From positions 64,001 to 128,000 of IMG/VR virus record IMGVR_UViG_3300021963_004854: a stretch of DNA of 64,000 nucleotides. One strand, given 5' to 3'. Below are positions 17,475 to 63,931 of this stretch, one piece after another. The notes under the pieces are model-generated. The model did not search any database. It saw only the letters and a program-made list of their open reading frames with translations, and had not been told where the DNA came from. Position numbers and translations under genes: made by a program. The first letter of the stretch is position 1. Each line of letters begins with the position of its first letter. The DNA comes from a virus.

Positions 17475-17503
17475 TTGACATTCATTCACGAATCGAGTAG
17501 TAT
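17475..17503 (+). promoter_or_regulatory. Early sigma70 promoter with GANTC box; late-type CATAAATA at 17463-17470
   Basis: TTGACA-N17-TAGTAT with CGAATCG in spacer. Confidence 0.75.
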
Positions 17504-17509
17504 ATAAAC

Positions 17510-18115
17510 ATGATTGGTTTTAAACAGTTTCTAAGTGAGTCGCAAGACGGTGCCGGGTTAACTATCTGGGACATTGACGAAACTTTATTTAAGACCACCG
17601 CCCGCGTCCACATCATCAAAGATGGTAAGATTATCAAGACGCTAGGCAACAAACAATATAATACATATCATTTACAGCCGGGTGAGTCCTTCGACTTTAG
17701 AGAGTTTAGGGACGCCCGGCATTTTCAATCTACCAGCGAACCCATCGCAAAAGCGATTCGCAAACTGATAGCAATGCATAAGAATATCAAGGCCAAAGGT
17801 AGCAAGATGGTTGTCATTACAGCCCGCTCCGACTTTGATGACCGTGATATTTTTCTAGACACATTCCGTAAGCAAGGCATTGATATCGATGATATCCATG
17901 TCCATCGTGCTGGCAATCTTGGTGCCATGCCCTCTGCGGCTGCTAAGAAAATCTACATCAAACAATACCTTGACACTGGTAAATATACTCGCGCCCGTCT
18001 CTTTGATGACGCGGTGTCCAATCTCCAGATGTTCAAGGACTTGGCTCATGAATATCCAAACGTGAAGTTTGAGCCTTTCCTGGCTCACGAAGATGGTTCA
18101 ATGACTCGTTTTTAA
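17510..18115 (+). CDS. HAD-superfamily phosphatase-like protein with capsid-targeting-like N-terminus
   Basis: WDIDETL (DxD), ITAR, FDD; N-terminus MIGFKQFLSE. Confidence 0.75.
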   Translation: MIGFKQFLSESQDGAGLTIWDIDETLFKTTARVHIIKDGKIIKTLGNKQYNTYHLQPGESFDFREFRDARHFQSTSEPIAKAIRKLIAMHKNIKAKGSKMVVITARSDFDDRDIFLDTFRKQGIDIDDIHVHRAGNLGAMPSAAAKKIYIKQYLDTGKYTRARLFDDAVSNLQMFKDLAHEYPNVKFEPFLAHEDGSMTRF

Positions 18116-18116
18116 C

Positions 18117-18144
18117 TTGACATTACCATCGATTCGTCTATACT
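18117..18144 (+). promoter_or_regulatory. Early sigma70 promoter with GANTC box
   Basis: TTGACA-N16-TATACT with CGATTCG in spacer. Confidence 0.75.
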
Positions 18145-18165
18145 AATAATAGAAGGAGAATGATT

Positions 18166-18507
18166 ATGATTAAGTCTATTGTTTCTAGTTTGATTGCTGT
18201 TAGTGTTCTTGCTACGCCTGTAGCCGCCGAGGCTCGTGGTCGGGACCATCAGCGCACCGAACATCGCCAGCGCGGTTTGAATACCGGCGAAGCGATTGCT
18301 CTAGGTGTCGGTGCTTTTATTCTTGGTGCTGCTATTAAAAGTGATAGGAACCGAGAGCGCGAAGTCGAACGTGAAGTTTATGACCGCGAGTATGACTACC
18401 ATATCCGCCGCCGCGAATACACTCGCACTTGCTATGAGTATCGGTCACCCGTTTATGACCGTTATGGTCGTTTTGTTTATAATGAAATTTACACCCGCTG
18501 CAATTAA
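18166..18507 (+). CDS. Secreted/membrane Arg-Tyr-rich small protein
   Basis: Signal peptide (ATPVAAEA), Gly/Ala hydrophobic segment, R/Y-rich tail; AAGGAG SD. Confidence 0.7.
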   Translation: MIKSIVSSLIAVSVLATPVAAEARGRDHQRTEHRQRGLNTGEAIALGVGAFILGAAIKSDRNREREVEREVYDREYDYHIRRREYTRTCYEYRSPVYDRYGRFVYNEIYTRCN

Positions 18508-18508
18508 A

Positions 18509-18545
18509 CGAATCACTTGACATTTGGTCGCGAATCGACTATAGT
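18509..18545 (+). promoter_or_regulatory. Early sigma70 promoter with two GANTC boxes
   Basis: CGAATCA-C-TTGACA-N17(CGAATCG)-TATAGT. Confidence 0.8.
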
Positions 18546-18580
18546 AAATAATGTGATTGATTGATTGAAGAGGTGTTGTT

Positions 18581-20800
18581 ATGTCCCAGTTTGCTGAAAA
18601 GTCGATTCTCGCCAAGTTGTTGGCGACCGAAAACGTTCACGTTGAACACCAGAAGGTAAGCACCGCTTACTTCAATCTTGAAAGCCGCACGGTCGTGTTG
18701 CCGATTTTCAAAGAAATGTCGGCTGACCTTTACGACCTGCTGATCGGCCACGAAGTCGGTCACGCTCTCGAAACACCCGCACAGGGCTGGCACTCCAGCA
18801 TTTCTGAAAAAGGTCAGGGCTTCAAGTCTTTCCTTAATATCATTGAAGACGCCCGTATTGAGCGCAAGATGAAGACCCGTTATCCTGGTCTTCGTCGGTC
18901 GTTCTACAATGGCTACAAGGAGTTGTTCGAACAGAACTTCTTCGGTGTAGAAGGTATGGACGTTAACAAGTTGAAGTTTATCGACCGCATCAACCTCAAC
19001 GCTAAGGTTGGTTCGTTCCTCAACATCAAGTTCTCGCCTGAGGAACAGGTAATCGTTGATCGCCTCGACACCCTCGAAACGTGGGATGATGTGGTCGCTC
19101 TCGCTACCGAACTCTACGACCGTGCCGACCAATCGACCGAAGAATATGACTTCGAACAGTTCCTCAACCAGTTCCAGATGGACGGTGATGACGACGGCGA
19201 GTTTGATCCTACGGCTGAATATATCGAAGTTCCTTCTGATGGTCAAGCTAATACTGATAAGCCTGAACGTCAAGCGCCTCCTTCTAAGGGTCAGAAGTCC
19301 GAAGATAAGAAGGAAGATGAATCGAAGTCTTCCTCGTCGGACAGCACCGATGAGAAGACCGATGAAAAGAGCGATGACTCGACCGAAGATAGCAATTCTG
19401 ACGGTGAAAAGCAAGAGAAAATTGAACCAACTTCGTTCACCGACGAAAACTTCCGTGAGAACGAGGACAGCCTCGTGGATCAAAGCGCCCGTGAGACGTT
19501 TTATGCCAAGCTCCCTGTTCTGAACCCTGCTGATTATGTTATCGGCATCAACACCGTCGAGAAGATGATGACCTTCTCTGTCGGTGGCACTGCTAGCCGC
19601 ACTGGCAAGACTGCCGACCAGGTCAAGATGGAACTCTACAAAGAGTTTCTGGCTAAGAACGGCAAGTATCTGTCTGCCATGGCACAAGATTTCGAACGTA
19701 AGAAGAAAGCCCAGTCGCTTATGCGCGCCCAGACTTCTAAGACTGGTCGCATCAACATGGACAAGGTATGGGCTTACAAGATTACCGAAGACCTGTTCCT
19801 TCAGAACACGGTTGTTCCAAATGGTCAGAACCATGGTATGCTTCTGTACCTCGATATGTCGGGTAGTATGAACTCAAACATGGCTGGTACCATGGAGCAG
19901 CTGGTTCTTCTGGCTTCGTTCTGCCAGAAAGTCCGTATCCCATTCGAAGTTTATGGTTTCATTTCTTCCAATGGTGTTCCTCATGATTATTACAACTCGG
20001 TTCGTGGGCGTAATAATTACTCAGATGACAAGAACCTGGTCATCGCAGACGGTAGTTTCCGTCTGCTCCAGCTTGTGGCTACTGGCGTTTCTGGTGGTAA
20101 GTTCAAGACCCAGATGGCAAACCTTCTGGCCCTTGGCAAGTCTTATGACCGTAATTTCTATGACCTCTATCTAGATGGCGATGCTGCTAACGCTTTCAGT
20201 CTTGGTAGCACTCCGCTAGAAGAAGCCATTCTGATCGGTCGCTATATCGCTGAAGGCTTCAAGACTCGTAACCGCATTGAAGTTCTCTCATCGGTGTTCC
20301 TGACTGACGGTGAAGGTGATTGCAACTTCGAAACTGCTGGTAGCAATGATGCCTATCGTAAGAACCTTGCGATTGTTGATACCAAGACTCGTCGCACCTT
20401 TACGCAGCCCTATGACGGCAGTGGTAGCTATCGTAGCAAGTCTTATTGCAAGGCTCTTCTTGACTTGTACCGTGAAACTACTGGTTCGCGAGTGATTAAT
20501 TTTTACCTGATTAATCCATATGAATTCAAGTATTTTCTTAATCGTTCGCTTGTCTTTGGTGCAGATGCAGAAGTTGCTCGTAAGACTTTTCGTAAGGAAA
20601 GTGCCGCACTTCTAAAGAATATCAATGGCTTTGATGACCTGTTTGTGATTAAGGCTGGCCGCGACCTTCAAGTTACCGAAGATACTCTCACGGTAGACTC
20701 GACCGACAAGAAGGAACTGACCAAGGCTTTCAAGGCGTTTCAAGATAAGAAAGCAATTGGTCGTGTGATTCTTACAAAAATGGTTGAGGCTGTGGCGTAA
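18581..20800 (+). CDS. CobT-like protein: HExxH metallopeptidase-like N-domain, acidic linker, vWA domain
   Basis: HEVGH, NIIEDARIE, MIDAS DMSGS and LTDGE; adjacent to CobS-like ATPase. Confidence 0.85.
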   Translation: MSQFAEKSILAKLLATENVHVEHQKVSTAYFNLESRTVVLPIFKEMSADLYDLLIGHEVGHALETPAQGWHSSISEKGQGFKSFLNIIEDARIERKMKTRYPGLRRSFYNGYKELFEQNFFGVEGMDVNKLKFIDRINLNAKVGSFLNIKFSPEEQVIVDRLDTLETWDDVVALATELYDRADQSTEEYDFEQFLNQFQMDGDDDGEFDPTAEYIEVPSDGQANTDKPERQAPPSKGQKSEDKKEDESKSSSSDSTDEKTDEKSDDSTEDSNSDGEKQEKIEPTSFTDENFRENEDSLVDQSARETFYAKLPVLNPADYVIGINTVEKMMTFSVGGTASRTGKTADQVKMELYKEFLAKNGKYLSAMAQDFERKKKAQSLMRAQTSKTGRINMDKVWAYKITEDLFLQNTVVPNGQNHGMLLYLDMSGSMNSNMAGTMEQLVLLASFCQKVRIPFEVYGFISSNGVPHDYYNSVRGRNNYSDDKNLVIADGSFRLLQLVATGVSGGKFKTQMANLLALGKSYDRNFYDLYLDGDAANAFSLGSTPLEEAILIGRYIAEGFKTRNRIEVLSSVFLTDGEGDCNFETAGSNDAYRKNLAIVDTKTRRTFTQPYDGSGSYRSKSYCKALLDLYRETTGSRVINFYLINPYEFKYFLNRSLVFGADAEVARKTFRKESAALLKNINGFDDLFVIKAGRDLQVTEDTLTVDSTDKKELTKAFKAFQDKKAIGRVILTKMVEAVA

Positions 20801-20836
20801 GAATCACTTGACATTTACCCGCGAATCGCTTATAGT
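20800..20836 (+). promoter_or_regulatory. Early sigma70 promoter with two GANTC boxes
   Basis: AGAATCA-C-TTGACA-N17(CGAATCG)-TATAGT. Confidence 0.8.
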
Positions 20837-47254: not shown

Positions 47255-47728
47255 ATGGAATCTCTGGAAACCAAAGTCGCGGTAATCGAACATGACCTGA
47301 AACAAATTCAGGTTGTGTTCGGTCGCCTTGACTTAGCAATCGAAAAGATTGGGGATGTTTCCAACTGTATCAATAAAATGTTAGCTGTGCATGATACTAA
47401 ACTTGAAGCACAAGAAAATGTCAATGAAGATATCTATCAGAGTTTAGAAGTGCATAGAAATGAAACTAAGGCCAGCAATGCCGAATTGCATTCCAGAATT
47501 ACTACCATCACTAGAGAACTGGAATCTAAAATTCAAACCACAGAAGACAAACTTCTTGATGCCATCAAAGACTTGAAAAAGTCGGTTGAAAAAGAAGAAG
47601 AAAAAAACAAAGAACGTATTGACAAACTAGAAAAAGCCAAGTATCTATTTGTAGGTGGTGGTCTAGTTGTCGGTGCTATTCTAACTAAAATTCTACCCGC
47701 ACTATCAAAATTTATACAAATAGGTTGA
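47255..47728 (+). CDS. Coiled-coil protein with C-terminal TM
   Basis: Heptad pattern, terminal hydrophobic helix; usual position before primase. Confidence 0.7.
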   Translation: MESLETKVAVIEHDLKQIQVVFGRLDLAIEKIGDVSNCINKMLAVHDTKLEAQENVNEDIYQSLEVHRNETKASNAELHSRITTITRELESKIQTTEDKLLDAIKDLKKSVEKEEEKNKERIDKLEKAKYLFVGGGLVVGAILTKILPALSKFIQIG

Positions 47729-47753
47729 CTTTCACCCACTAGGGGTGTATAGT
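47725..47753 (+). promoter_or_regulatory. Sigma70 promoter for primase (probably leaderless)
   Basis: TTGACT-N17-TATAGT, ATG 7 nt downstream. Confidence 0.65.
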
Positions 47754-47759
47754 GAATCT

Positions 47760-55642: not shown

Positions 55643-56610
55643 TGCTAGTAGCCCTAGCTATTACAGGTGTAGCTGGCTACTTTTCGATTTTGGGATTGAT
55701 GGCTATCTTTCCTGCATCACCTATTGCAGTAGCTGCCATGGGTATTGTATTAGAACTTGCTAAGTTGGTTACAGCCAGCTGGGTGTATCGTAATTGGAAA
55801 ACAGCGAATCGATTGCTGAAAACCTATTTTACGATTGCAGTCATCGTTCTTTCGTTCATCACAAGTATGGGCGTATTTGGTTATCTAAGTAAAGCCCACA
55901 TCGAACACACCACTGTCGGTGGTTCGTCACAACTACAAATTGCCCAGCTAGAAAGCCAAAAGGCTATAGCGGAAAGGAGACTAAAGAATGCACAAACATC
56001 TTTGGATACTCTGGACAGACTCACTACTGGCGAAAATATCCTTGATGCTAATTTCATTAGAAATCGACAGAAGCGAGAACGTGCGGCCCTTAATAAGGAA
56101 ATTGAGGGTGCGACTACAGACATTCAGACTATTGAGACTAATCTCATACCGCTCAAAACAGAAACCCTCAAACTCGAAGCGGAAGTAGGCCCTATCAAAT
56201 ATGTAGCGGAACTGTTCTACGGTAGTGGTGATAACGCCACTATCGATAAGGCTGTTCGCATGATGATTATCATTCTTATCTTTGTTTTCGACCCATTGGC
56301 AATTCTTTTGATTATTGCGGCGAATATGACCTTTTTAGGGTTGACAAAGAGAGAAGAATCAGATACAATAGACAATGTTCCCGTTGAAGTTTATGTGCCA
56401 GCACCGGCTCCAACAGAGACACTAAAAGAAGTTGTAAGAAAAGCAAAGAACAATCGTAAGAAGAAACCGAAAGCACCCACACCAGAAGTTCCTGACTTCT
56501 TTAAGTTTGAGAAGCACGGGTCTACTCATGATGTTCCGATGCCCGACCCCCCTCGCAAAAATGCAAGGGGTCAAATCATAGTTGATGAAAAAAATATTAG
56601 GAGAATGTGA
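55621..56610 (+). CDS. Membrane protein with coiled coil
   Basis: Three N-terminal TMs, coiled coil, EVGPIKY, FVFDPLA TM. Confidence 0.75.
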   Translation: MFFAALLMLVALAITGVAGYFSILGLMAIFPASPIAVAAMGIVLELAKLVTASWVYRNWKTANRLLKTYFTIAVIVLSFITSMGVFGYLSKAHIEHTTVGGSSQLQIAQLESQKAIAERRLKNAQTSLDTLDRLTTGENILDANFIRNRQKRERAALNKEIEGATTDIQTIETNLIPLKTETLKLEAEVGPIKYVAELFYGSGDNATIDKAVRMMIIILIFVFDPLAILLIIAANMTFLGLTKREESDTIDNVPVEVYVPAPAPTETLKEVVRKAKNNRKKKPKAPTPEVPDFFKFEKHGSTHDVPMPDPPRKNARGQIIVDEKNIRRM

Positions 56611-56891
56611 TGACTTTATTTTATGAGAAAAACGGCCCAGACCAAGACTGGCGCTCTAGTGTGCGTGATACTCTGACTAAGGGAGTGGCGCATGTTGAAT
56701 TTGAAAAAAATGATGGTCAAATTCGGCATATGAAATGCACTCTTGATCCAACTGTTGTTCCGCCATACCAAGAACTTGGTAAGACTACGAAGATTCCTAG
56801 CGATGATGTTCAAGCCGTCTGGGATATTGAAAAGGCTGCATGGCGGTCATTTAGATTCGATAGAGTTCGAAATATTCGTTTTGAGGGTTGA
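56607..56891 (+). CDS. WYL-like domain protein
   Basis: F.K.DG..R.M.CTL, VWD....WRSFR. Confidence 0.75.
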   Translation: MMTLFYEKNGPDQDWRSSVRDTLTKGVAHVEFEKNDGQIRHMKCTLDPTVVPPYQELGKTTKIPSDDVQAVWDIEKAAWRSFRFDRVRNIRFEG

Positions 56892-56916
56892 CAAACGACT
56901 CGATATATCGTATAGT
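56888..56916 (+). promoter_or_regulatory. Early sigma70 promoter with GANTC box
   Basis: TTGACA-N17-TATAGT with CGACTCG in spacer. Confidence 0.75.
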
Positions 56917-61185: not shown

Positions 61186-61228
61186 AAAAACTGTTGATAA
61201 ATGTCAAAAACTGTTATATATAGTATTC

Positions 61229-61240
61229 TGTTCTTTGACA
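61229..61240 (+). promoter_or_regulatory. boxA-like antitermination element before tRNA cluster
   Basis: TGTTCTTTGACA versus rrn boxA TGCTCTTTAACA. Confidence 0.5.
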
Positions 61241-61258
61241 TTGTTAGAAGTTTTTATT

Positions 61259-61346
61259 GGAAGCGTGGGTGAGTGGTTGAAACCTACAGTCTTGAAAACT
61301 GTCGTACCGCAAGGTACCGTGGGTTCGAATCCCACCGCTTCCTCCA
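61259..61346 (+). tRNA. tRNA-Ser(TGA)
   Basis: Anticodon loop CTTGAAA, long variable arm GTACC-GCAA-GGTAC, CCA. Confidence 0.95.
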
Positions 61347-61350
61347 GTTT

Positions 61351-61426
61351 GGGGATGTAGTCCAATGGCAGAGACAGAGGACTTAAAATCCTTCCAGTGT
61401 GGGTTCGAGTCCCACCATCCCTACCA
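61351..61426 (+). tRNA. tRNA-Leu(TAA), short variable loop
   Basis: Anticodon loop CTTAAAA, GTTCGAG, CCA; 76 nt. Confidence 0.9.
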
Positions 61427-61427
61427 A

Positions 61428-61503
61428 TGCCCCTTGGTGTAATTGGCAACACGTCGGATTTTGATTCCGAAAAGTCCAGGTTCGAGCCCTGGAGGGGCAT
61501 CCA
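61428..61503 (+). tRNA. tRNA-Gln(TTG)
   Basis: T1-A72, anticodon loop TTTTGAT, CCA. Confidence 0.93.
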
Positions 61504-61522: not shown

Positions 61523-61759
61523 ATGAGTGATGTTGTAGCAGTAGACCAACTTCGTCTGTTTATTGAACGTATTGAAAACATCGAAGTGGAAATTGATGCG
61601 AAGAAGACTGACCGCAAGGAAGTCTATTCAGAATTGAAGGGTGAAGGCTTTGATGCCAAGGCAGTTCGTGCTATTGTGCGCCTCCGTAAGAAGGAAGCAC
61701 ATATCCGTCAAGAAGAAGATATGATTCTTGATACATATCGAAATGCAATTGGCGTTTAA
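61523..61759 (+). CDS. gapR: GapR (DUF2312) nucleoid-associated protein homologue
   Basis: QLRLFIERIE, KEVYSE.KGEGFD.K..R.IVRLRK, LDTY..A.G. Confidence 0.9.
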   Translation: MSDVVAVDQLRLFIERIENIEVEIDAKKTDRKEVYSELKGEGFDAKAVRAIVRLRKKEAHIRQEEDMILDTYRNAIGV

Positions 61760-63484: not shown

Positions 63485-63513
63485 TTGACATTTACCTGCG
63501 AATCAGCTATAAA
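63485..63513 (+). promoter_or_regulatory. Early sigma70 promoter with GANTC box
   Basis: TTGACA-N17-TATAAA with CGAATCA in spacer. Confidence 0.78.
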
Positions 63514-63544
63514 GAAAGAGTAGTTGATGACGAGGTGATTCGAA

Positions 63545-63931
63545 ATGCTTACTCTTGCCGATATTAATGCTGCCACCAATTCTAAAGATGGCAATATCTA
63601 TTCCGACCTCTACAAGGATGTTTACGGCAGCCGTCCTCGGTATGCCCAGTTCGCATCCATCGAAGAGTTCGATGCGGATTTCGAACGCCTTGTGGCTCGT
63701 CTGGCCGAACAGATTGACGAAGATAAGATTCGTCAGGATGCAAATCTTGAAGCATTCAAGGTGCGCGTGGCAGAAACCATGCTTCTTTGTAACTGCGACA
63801 AGGTTCGCGCCGTAGAAATCATCGCCGATGCTGAAGGCGAACTTGAGAACCTTGAGTTCTACAGTTACGAACGCCTTGAGTGGTACTTCGATATTAAATT
63901 CGGAGATATCAAGCAGTGGATGGCTGAATAA
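63545..63931 (+). CDS. Hypothetical early protein
   Basis: IYSDLYKDVYGSRPR motif; GAGGT SD. Confidence 0.75.
   Translation: MLTLADINAATNSKDGNIYSDLYKDVYGSRPRYAQFASIEEFDADFERLVARLAEQIDEDKIRQDANLEAFKVRVAETMLLCNCDKVRAVEIIADAEGELENLEFYSYERLEWYFDIKFGDIKQWMAE

What the first reader, a model, noticed from the sequence alone, without database searches (positions are those of the whole stretch)
17475..20836. Early promoters carry a position-fixed GANTC/GcrA-type box: possible hijack of the host CcrM-GcrA methylation circuit
Seen: six TTGACA promoters have a GANTC heptamer ending exactly 2 nt before the -10 box: CGAATCG (17489, 18531, 20822), CGATTCG (18130), CGAATCA (63499) and AGAATCA (56355). The 18117 promoter has a 16-nt spacer yet keeps the distance to -10. 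Two promoters have a second site abutting the -35 (18509, 20800), and 56888 has CGACTCG. Replication-gene promoters (22523, 24241, 30022, 47725) lack it in the spacer. Known: GANTC is the alphaproteobacterial CcrM methylation site, and the sigma70 cofactor GcrA prefers methylated YGAKTCG; CGAATCG, CGATTCG, CGAATCA and CGACTCG all match this on one strand. The phage also carries GapR, an alphaproteobacterial marker. Inference: immediate-early transcription is gated by adenine methylation and host GcrA (possibly sensing cell-cycle stage), replacing a MotA/AsiA-type system.
Basis: partly seen in the sequence, partly recalled or inferred. Interest (0 to 1): 0.82.

Follow-up and report, generated by a model that had tools for sequence, protein, structure and literature searches.

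The report
Phage early promoters carrying GcrA-type boxes
A T4-like phage from a metagenome has a family of strong early promoters carrying the exact DNA word (CGAATC/TGATTCG) that the alphaproteobacterial methylation reader GcrA recognises, at about the places where GcrA works, which suggests, but does not prove, that the phage borrows the host's epigenetic cell-cycle circuit to start infection.

Summary
All six promoters named have a GANTC heptamer ending 2 nt before the -10 box. Genome-wide, about 17 related early promoter cassettes exist. Thirteen have CGAWTC at -21..-16, and eleven also have TGATTCG, or its complement, in the leader.

The intergenic surplus of GANTC comes entirely from N-GATTCG sites, while GANTC is depleted in coding DNA. 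In close relatives the box varies less than the rest of the spacer (p = 0.004). Distant T4-like relatives carry TGATTCG at other leader positions (+2..+19).

Sequence, strand orientation and placement (near -20; +2..+30) fit published GcrA sites. The phage carries two alphaproteobacterial markers, GapR and an alpha-type two-piece tmRNA.

Several points remain unproven or count against:
- The host is unknown.
- The phage has no detectable adenine methyltransferase or GcrA.
- GcrA binding needs methylation.
- The spacer box sits about 2 bp closer to -10 than the Caulobacter optimum.
- A sister clade with the same cassettes and markers has no GANTC boxes.
- The sites abutting -35 are not conserved and lie outside GcrA's reach.
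- The MotA/AsiA analogy is misplaced.

Other windows of this genome were flagged for the same motif by this scan. Verdict: a real, selected motif. The GcrA/CcrM reading is the best explanation, at about 50%.

The parts
17475..17503 (+). Early promoter P1, in front of a HAD-phosphatase-like gene. -35 TTGACA at 17475-17480, 17-nt spacer with box CGAATCG at 17489-17495, -10 TAGTAT at 17498-17503. The ATG at 17510 lies about where transcription should start, so the mRNA is probably leaderless.
   Evidence: The box is invariant in 20 related loci while 5 upstream spacer positions vary.
18117..18144 (+). Early promoter P2, in front of a 115-aa small protein. -35 at 18117-18122, 16-nt spacer, box CGATTCG at 18130-18136 (the same heptamer on the other strand), -10 TATACT at 18139-18144.
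   Evidence: In relatives GATTC is kept while the flanks change (L030). The site is lost as GTTTC in 2 of 21 loci.
18509..18545 (+). Early promoter P3, in front of a 739-aa CobT-like gene. Upstream GAATC at 18510-18514 abuts the -35 box (18517-18522). Box CGAATCG at 18531-18537. -10 TATAGT at 18540-18545.
   Evidence: The spacer is identical in 26 related loci.
20800..20836 (+). Early promoter P4, in front of a CobS/MoxR-type AAA ATPase gene. Upstream GAATC at 20801-20805. -35 at 20808-20813. Box CGAATCG at 20822-20828. -10 TATAGT at 20831-20836.
   Evidence: The box is invariant in 27 loci and 8 haplotypes. The upstream GAATC is lost in 22 of the 27 loci.
56341..56369 (+). Promoter of a second class (gggTTGACAaa). 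Box AGAATCA at 56355-56361, -10 TACAAT at 56364-56369.
   Evidence: The orthologue in L177 has CGAATCA at the same offset.
56888..56916 (+). Promoter with CGACTCG at 56896-56902, about 6 bp further upstream in the spacer. This is probably a chance site.
   Evidence: The orthologue in L177 has no GANTC there.
63485..63547 (+). Full cassette. -35 at 63485-63490, box CGAATCA at 63499-63505, -10 TATAAA at 63508-63513, leader TGATTCG at 63536-63542, ATG at 63545.
61523..61759 (+). GapR (DUF2312) gene, a marker of the host lineage.
   Evidence: Pfam GapR_DNA-bd 88.6 bits. Homologues in 149 cultured-phage records come almost entirely from alphaproteobacterial hosts.

Best explanation
The phage is a T4-like myovirus, most likely of an alphaproteobacterium. 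It starts infection from about 17 near-consensus sigma70 promoter cassettes. Built into them is the hexamer CGAATC (= GATTCG).

The hexamer sits in the -35/-10 spacer at about -21..-16, read on the bottom strand. Many cassettes carry it again in the transcribed leader as TGATTCG, read on the top strand. This is the preferred recognition sequence of GcrA, the sigma70-bound reader of CcrM-methylated GANTC.

Proposed mechanism:
- Host RNA polymerase already carrying GcrA is held better, and opens faster, on phage promoters bearing these boxes.
- Phage early genes would therefore out-compete host promoters, chiefly in cells that contain GcrA.
- The effect would apply to phage DNA whose GANTC sites were methylated by CcrM in the previous host.

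Shown here:
- The motif, its fixed or windowed placement, and its selective conservation.
- Its independent recurrence in distant relatives.
- The alphaproteobacterial markers.

Inferred:
- That the sites are methylated.
- That the effect is activation.
- Any link to the cell cycle.
For: 1. Motif identity. The intergenic GANTC surplus is wholly N-GATTCG. TGATTCG is intergenic in 12 of 28 sites, CGATTCG in 8 of 17 and AGATTCG in 7 of 29. All other GANTC types are intergenic in 28 of 420, which equals background. The published GcrA consensus is TGATTCG / YGAKTCK, and GcrA was crystallised on TGATTCG.

2. Geometry. Spacer sites lie at -20..-16 in 14 of 41 promoter-like windows. Leader sites lie at +17..+24 in this clade and +2..+19 in a low-GC clade. 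Other clades have spacer sites centred at -19 and -21. Published GcrA sites lie 'narrowly around -20' and 'widely +2 to +30'.

3. Orientation. GAATC is on the top strand in the spacer, as in PcsM. TGAKTCG is on the top strand in the leader, as in PmipZ.

4. Selection. The box is invariant while neighbouring spacer bases vary, p = 0.004. The orthologue of ORF 161431 in distant relatives (43-55% identity) keeps a leader site at a different place and in the other orientation. In a promoter sample not chosen for the box, GATTCG is the most enriched non-Shine-Dalgarno hexamer downstream of -10, with 9 of 87 observed against 1.6 expected.

5. GANTC distribution mirrors CcrM-bearing bacteria. Observed over expected is 0.77 in coding DNA and 1.6 in intergenic DNA, compared with more than 1.5-fold intergenic over-representation in Alphaproteobacteria.

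6. Host lineage. GapR is present, as is an alpha-type two-piece tmRNA.

7. Precedent. phiCbK phages encode GcrA homologues. A Brevundimonas prophage operon is GcrA-dependent.
Against: [quoted passage not shown]
- GcrA binding depends on m6A, strictly so in Agrobacterium. No N6_N4, D12 or Dam-type methyltransferase is found in the phage. CcrM is active only late in the cell cycle. The infecting DNA may therefore be unmethylated.
- If the -10 box spans -12..-7, the spacer site is centred at -18. That is 2 bp closer to -10 than PcsM and just outside the modelled -20 +/- 1 window. The transcription start is unknown.
- The 16-nt class reads AGATTCG, which misses the Y of the consensus. Four cassette members have AAATC or GGTTR instead of GANTC.
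- Sister clade B (CobS 71-74% identical) has the same cassettes and also carries the tmRNA or GapR. It has a different conserved spacer (..TTTTGGGG), no GANTC boxes, and a GANTC observed/expected ratio of 0.92.
- Two cultured T4-like phages of Alphaproteobacteria show no such motif: ORM_20 and HTVC008M.
- The promoters are already near-consensus, so the need for an activator is unclear.
Confidence: 0.5

Rival explanations
1. The box is only the lineage-specific consensus of a repeated early-promoter cassette of the PeSL type. Gene conversion between cassettes, or a direct effect of spacer sequence on RNA polymerase, keeps it uniform. That it contains GANTC is a coincidence, and nothing reads it as a methylation site.
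For: - Repeated early-promoter cassettes with lineage-specific consensus are known in T4-like phages.
- Several cassettes share identical spacers (tttggtcgcgaatcgac).
- Clade B conserves a different spacer word at the same place.
- Clade D has cCAATCcTGC, and some clade A members have AAATCTGC. CGAATC could therefore be a small drift from an ancestral AATC-TGC spacer.
- The TGC is simply an extended -10.
Against: - It does not explain why the same hexamer recurs in the leader in the opposite orientation, or at different leader positions in distant clades.
- It does not explain why the box is invariant while adjacent spacer bases vary (p = 0.004).
- It does not explain why only N-GATTCG types are enriched between genes.
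- It does not explain the match of word and orientation to GcrA sites.
Confidence: 0.2
2. CGAATC/GATTCG is the binding site of a different sequence-specific protein. This could be a phage-encoded early regulator, for example a shut-off repressor or an injected activator. It could also be another host factor. It acts on early promoters from the spacer or the leader.
For: - The motif is selected and works in either orientation at DNA level.
- Clade-specific words (CGAATC in A, GGGG in B) are what co-evolution of a phage protein with its site would give.
- The middle base is nearly always A/T, so the conserved unit is GATTCG rather than GANTC in general.
- A site inside the spacer or the early transcribed region is a classic repressor position (established knowledge).
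Against: - No candidate protein was identified.
- The exact identity with the GcrA word, and the two GcrA-type placement windows and orientations, would be a coincidence.
- A monomer-sized 6-7 bp site with no dyad partner is unusual for repressors.
Confidence: 0.2
3. The leader copy acts in the RNA. GUGAUUCG pairs, with two wobbles, to the 16S rRNA 3' region GGAUCAC. It could be an extended Shine-Dalgarno or standby site, or a processing site. The spacer copy would then be unrelated.
For: - In clade A the leader copy ends 2 nt before the ATG in most cassettes.
- GGTGAT-type Shine-Dalgarno sequences occur before the CobS-like gene and one other gene.
Against: - GTGAT is rare upstream of other genes, in 6 of 216, of which 3 are cassette leaders. 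The usual Shine-Dalgarno is AGGA/GGAG.
- Two cassettes carry the reverse complement CGAATCA instead.
- In clade C the motif lies at +2..+10, far upstream of a separate Shine-Dalgarno.
- A perfect complement (GTGATCC) is never used.
- This reading does not explain the spacer box.
Confidence: 0.07

Closest known systems
GcrA-activated, CcrM-methylated sigma70 promoters of Caulobacter, Brevundimonas, Agrobacterium and Brucella (for example PcsM and PmipZ)
   Same: - Sigma70-type promoter.
- GANTC with the extended flanks TGATTCG / CGATTCG.
- One site class in the spacer near -20 and one in the +2..+30 leader.
- The same strand orientation at each place.
- GANTC is scarce in coding DNA and enriched between genes.
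   Different: - These sites lie on a lytic phage genome, in about 17 copies of one cassette.
- The promoters are near-consensus, not weak.
- The spacer site is about 2 bp closer to -10.
- Neither methylation nor GcrA dependence is shown, and the host is unknown.
PeSL (promoter-early stem-loop) cassettes of T4-like phages (Arbiol 2010; Comeau 2014)
   Same: - Repeated near-consensus TTGACA-N17-TATAAT early promoters, each with a Shine-Dalgarno and a start codon, in front of small variable ORFs.
- The consensus is lineage-specific.
- They are concentrated in hyperplastic regions.
   Different: - Published PeSLs are described with an unspecified N17 spacer and an upstream stem-loop.
- Here the spacer and leader carry a specific selected word.
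- Most cassettes have no stem-loop. The preceding ORF often ends in the TGA of TTGACA.
GcrA homologues encoded by phiCbK-like Caulobacter phages
   Same: A phage engages the GcrA arm of the alphaproteobacterial cell-cycle circuit.
   Different: phiCbK brings the protein. This phage has no GcrA gene and would instead carry the DNA sites for the host protein.
T4 MotA/AsiA middle promoters
   Same: A T4-like phage promoter class with an extra conserved box.
   Different: - The MotA box replaces the -35 element and serves middle genes.
- Here the -35 box is intact, the box lies next to -10, the genes look early, and no MotA or AsiA is detected (which had no positive control).

Membership tests
GcrA/CcrM-dependent promoter | Sigma70-type -35 and -10 elements | tested here: met
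   The promoters match 10-11 of 12 consensus positions and are the top hits in the region. The family is aligned.
GcrA/CcrM-dependent promoter | GANTC with extended flanks YGAKTCG/K | tested here: met
   CGATTCG (17-nt spacer class), TGATTCG (leaders, and the spacer at 63499) and TGATTCT (56355) fit. The 16-nt class AGATTCG misses the Y, and 4 cassettes lack GANTC at that place.
GcrA/CcrM-dependent promoter | Site centred at -20 +/- 1 (or -30 +/- 2), or at +2..+30 | tested here: inconclusive
   Leader sites at +2..+24 fit. The spacer site is centred at -18 if the -10 box spans -12..-7. Transcription starts are not mapped.
GcrA/CcrM-dependent promoter | N6-adenine methylation of the site by CcrM | not testable with these tools
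   No methylome is available. The phage has no N6_N4, D12 or Dam methyltransferase.
GcrA/CcrM-dependent promoter | Host encodes GcrA and CcrM | not testable with these tools
   The host is unknown. Lineage markers point to Alphaproteobacteria, nearly all of which have both proteins. GcrA was found in 2 of the 3 Sphingomonadales genomes holding the nearest cellular GapR genes found.
GcrA/CcrM-dependent promoter | Activity depends on GcrA | not testable with these tools
   This needs an experiment.
PeSL cassette of T4-like phages | Repeated near-consensus early promoter plus Shine-Dalgarno plus start codon before small variable ORFs | tested here: met
   About 17 cassettes exist. Most lie at 140-162 kb of the genome, and four at 17.4-20.9 kb of the window.
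PeSL cassette of T4-like phages | Stem-loop terminator just upstream of the promoter | tested here: inconclusive
   Of the four window promoters, only P3 has a terminator-like hairpin nearby (18455-18471). The count of hairpins is no higher than in shuffled sequence.
T4 MotA-dependent middle promoter | MotA box at -30 in place of the -35 element, with MotA and AsiA genes present | tested here: not met
   The -35 TTGACA is intact. No AsiA or MotA match was found (which had no positive control).

The most novel reading that the evidence does not exclude
A lytic T4-like phage has written the host's epigenetic reader site into its immediate-early promoters. The GcrA-loaded sigma70 polymerase would then prefer phage DNA only when its GANTC sites carry the m6A mark laid down by CcrM in the previous host cell. 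Infection success would depend on the cell-cycle stage of both the producing cell and the receiving cell. That would amount to an epigenetic memory for a virulent phage. Related clades have gained or lost the device.
Probability: 0.3. Interest if true: 0.85.

Novelty: new variant of a known kind. Interest (0 to 1): 0.62.

Why it matters
GcrA/CcrM is the model case of bacterial epigenetic control of transcription. So far it is known to act on cellular promoters and, in one report, on a Brevundimonas prophage operon. Phages are known to carry GcrA or CcrM-like genes. I found no report of a virulent phage carrying GcrA boxes in its early promoters (search limited to the held library).

If the reading is right, it gives a compact natural set of strong promoters with boxes at defined positions. 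Sister clades without the boxes serve as built-in controls. Together these could test how GcrA position, orientation and methylation affect initiation, and whether phage infection in Alphaproteobacteria is tied to the cell cycle.

If it is wrong, the motif still marks an unknown regulator site shared by a large, uncultured group of freshwater T4-like phages.

Tried and rejected
- **Close cultured relatives:** none. Megablast of 7 kb found nothing. The best DNA polymerase hit is about 50% identical, to cyanophages. The cassette itself has no match in cultured phages.
- **Independent replicate in cultured alphaproteobacterial T4-like phages:**
  - The first 100 kb of Ochrobactrum phage ORM_20 has GANTC depletion (observed/expected 0.70) but no promoter or intergenic enrichment.
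  - Pelagibacter phage HTVC008M has no TANNNT-N3..40-TGATTCG match at all.
- **Host refinement by tmRNA:** BLAST against 401 alphaproteobacterial genomes gave only short weak hits. The nearest cellular GapR genes found are Sphingomonadales at 52-62% identity, which is too weak to name a host.
- **Phage-encoded reader or writer:** no GcrA and no N6_N4, D12 or Dam methyltransferase.
- **Is the depletion specific to GATTCG?** No. GAWTC in general is depleted (0.58-0.69) more than GASTC (0.81-0.85). This fits restriction avoidance as well as CcrM effects.
- **Rejected: the sites abutting -35 as GcrA sites.** They are lost in most relatives and are out of modelled reach.
- **Rejected: the 56888 CGACTCG as part of the system.** It sits at a different offset and is not conserved.
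- **Rejected: the MotA/AsiA analogy.**


Full report
**What the DNA is.** The window is bases 64001-128000 of a 171,566-bp IMG/VR virus record with 42% G+C, rated complete by CheckV. It is a T4-like myovirus.
- The region after the finding encodes a sliding clamp, a clamp loader, a family B DNA polymerase and UvsX.
- The nearest cultured relatives are cyanomyoviruses and Pelagibacter phage HTVC008M, at about 50% protein identity.
- No cultured phage matches at DNA level.

**The observation.**
- The four promoters in 17475-20836 are the best sigma70-type matches in the region, at 10-11 of 12 consensus positions.
- Each lies in a short gap before a plus-strand ORF. The ORFs are a HAD phosphatase-like gene, a 115-aa protein, a 739-aa CobT-like protein and a CobS/MoxR ATPase.
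- GANTC is scarce in the window, at 188 sites against 284 expected. Six promoters with it at one offset is far beyond chance.

**The promoter family genome-wide.** There are about 17 members in two forms.
- One form is TTGACAttt-N5-CGAATCG-nn-TATAGT, with a 17-nt spacer.
- The other is TTGACAtty-N4-CGAATC-TGC-TATTRT, with a 16-nt spacer. Its TGC is an ordinary extended -10.
- Thirteen members have CGAWTC at -21..-16, counting the -10 box as -12..-7.
- Four members have AAATC or GGTTR at that place instead.
- Eleven members also carry TGATTCG, or in two cases its complement CGAATCA, in the leader just before the ATG.
- Sixteen of the 17 have at least one such site.

**Is the box more than cassette copying?** Three lines of evidence say yes.
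- *Intergenic surplus.* The excess of GANTC between genes is made up only of N-GATTCG types: TGATTCG 12 of 28 intergenic, CGATTCG 8 of 17, AGATTCG 7 of 29. All other GANTC types are intergenic in 28 of 420 cases (6.7%), which matches the 6% of the genome that is intergenic. GANTC overall stands at 0.77 of expectation in coding DNA and 1.6 between genes.
- *Conservation in close relatives.* I compared about 28 related IMG/VR loci whose CobS is 82-99% identical. Across the four orthologous promoters, 2 of 28 box positions vary against 15 of 39 other spacer positions (Fisher p = 0.004).
- *Recurrence in distant relatives.* Other T4-like contigs have clamp loader 58% and DNA polymerase 41-50% identical, with G+C of 30-41%. 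They carry tGATTCG at +2..+19 in their early leaders. That is well upstream of a separate Shine-Dalgarno sequence, and their spacers differ. The orthologue of ORF 161431 keeps a leader site, but at another place and on the other strand. In a promoter sample defined without the box (TTGACATT-N11-TGCTATTNT; 87 non-redundant hits), GATTCG is the most enriched hexamer downstream of -10 after the Shine-Dalgarno-type words, with 9 observed against 1.6 expected. Relatedness among the contigs is not fully removed in these counts.

**Comparison with GcrA.** The published work gives five points of reference.
- Consensus TGATTCG, more broadly YGAKTCK.
- A crystal structure of GcrA on TGATTCG.
- Sites in activated promoters 'narrowly centred around -20' and 'widely distributed from +2 to +30'.
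- A cryo-EM complex with GAATC at -22..-18 of PcsM, and an active TGAGTCG at +12 of PmipZ.
- A model in which the DNA-binding domain cannot reach upstream of the -35 box.

The phage word is the same. The two placement windows are the same in kind. The strand orientation at each place agrees: GAATC on the top strand in the spacer, and TGAKTCG on the top strand in the leader.

The fit is not exact.
- The spacer box is centred at about -18, not -20, if the -10 box spans -12..-7.
- The 16-nt class reads AGATTCG.
- Other clades have spacer sites centred at -19 and -21.

**Host lineage.** Two independent markers point to an alphaproteobacterium.
- GapR (window 61523-61759) has homologues in 149 cultured-phage records, almost all from phages of Rhodobacter, Rhizobium, Ruegeria, Agrobacterium, Caulobacter, Brevundimonas and similar hosts.
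Its tag is ANDNVAFAGYALAA, and its best match within the tmRNA clan is Rfam alpha_tmRNA (71.8 bits against a gathering score of 50).
[quoted passage not shown] The CcrM/GcrA pair is conserved in nearly all of the class.
- The actual host could not be named.

**What speaks against, or is missing.**
- The phage has no GcrA and no DNA adenine methyltransferase of the three main families.
- GcrA binding needs m6A, strictly so in Agrobacterium, and CcrM acts only late in the cell cycle. The methylation state of infecting DNA is therefore the weak point of the model.
- Sister clade B (CobS 71-74% identical) has the same cassette system, with TTGACT, a conserved ..TTTTGGGG word before -10 and an AAGGAA Shine-Dalgarno. 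It has no GANTC boxes and little GANTC depletion (0.92 against 0.73-0.79). It nevertheless carries the permuted tmRNA (G002) or GapR (G004).
- A clade-specific word at the same place is what a co-evolving phage factor, or cassette drift, would also produce.
- ORM_20 and HTVC008M show nothing similar.
- The GANTC depletion is not specific to GATTCG, so it may reflect restriction avoidance.

- The GAATC abutting the -35 box is lost in 22 of 27 relatives at P4 and is out of GcrA's modelled reach.
- The 56888 CGACTCG sits at another offset and is absent from the orthologue.
- MotA and AsiA govern T4 middle promoters (established knowledge), so nothing is being 'replaced'. Neither protein is detectable in any case.

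**The leader copy as RNA.** GUGAUUCG can pair with 16S GGAUCAC, which makes a Shine-Dalgarno-like role possible. Several facts make a DNA-level reading more economical.
- GTGAT is rare before other genes, at 6 of 216.
- Reverse-complement copies exist.
- The motif floats to +2..+10 in other clades.
- The same hexamer sits in the untranscribed spacer.

**Relation to known things.** The cassette architecture is the PeSL kind described for T4-like phages. Here most cassettes lack the stem-loop, and the preceding ORF often ends in the TGA of TTGACA. The embedded word matches the GcrA box. Phage links to this circuit are known only as phage-borne GcrA genes and a GcrA-dependent prophage operon. Literature searches found no report of GcrA boxes in phage early promoters.

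**Verdict.** The motif is real, selected and acts at DNA level. The GcrA/CcrM reading is the best single explanation, at about 0.5. The main rivals are cassette consensus without a reader (0.2) and another protein reader (0.2). It is a new variant of known kinds and is worth an experiment.

Noticed in passing
G000:C1:14720-15093 (outside the window); also G002:30400-30704 and G005:92558-93003: The phage encodes a permuted (two-piece) tmRNA of the alphaproteobacterial type. The tag is ANDNVAFAGYALAA in G000 and G005 and ANDNVAFALAA in clade B (G002). It serves as a host-lineage marker and is of interest in itself.
   Followed up: partly
window 17498-17512: The ATG of the HAD-phosphatase-like gene (17510) begins 7 nt after the -10 hexamer of P1. 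The mRNA is therefore probably leaderless. The arrangement is kept in 20 related loci.
   Followed up: partly
G002 and G004 (L085-L097), e.g. G002:56436, 70587, 122610: Sister clade B has 20-30 early cassettes of the form gggcTTGACTtyt..cgttttGGGG-TA(T/G)A(C/A)T. A run of G directly before -10 takes the place of the GANTC box. Its reader is unknown.
   Followed up: partly
genome 140847, 141240, 151419, 157016, 157323 (beyond the window): The preceding ORF ends in the TGA inside the next TTGACA (…ACC GCT TGA CA). Stop codon and -35 box overlap, and no terminator lies between the cassettes.
   Followed up: no
window 47725-47758: The promoter TTGACT-N17-TATAGT has GAATC immediately after the -10 box (about -6..-2), a place where published GcrA sites are almost absent.
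   Followed up: no
window 61204-61500 and genome 125259-133427: A large tRNA gene cluster lies around GapR. ARAGORN finds 25 tRNAs in the genome, 24 of them between 125 and 133 kb.
   Followed up: no
L151 and L121 (IMG/VR contigs, G+C 40-41%): A further related clade has the spacer word cCAATCcTGC and leaders ending agagagaaagGAATCA..ATG. It looks like an intermediate form between the GANTC and non-GANTC cassettes.
   Followed up: partly
OX359470.1 55720-55790 (L105): Ochrobactrum phage ORM_20 has one promoter-like site, TTTACA-N17-TATGAT, with cGAATCtgaa before the -10 box. It lies in the gap before the operon that holds its GapR homologue. This is a single case.
   Followed up: no
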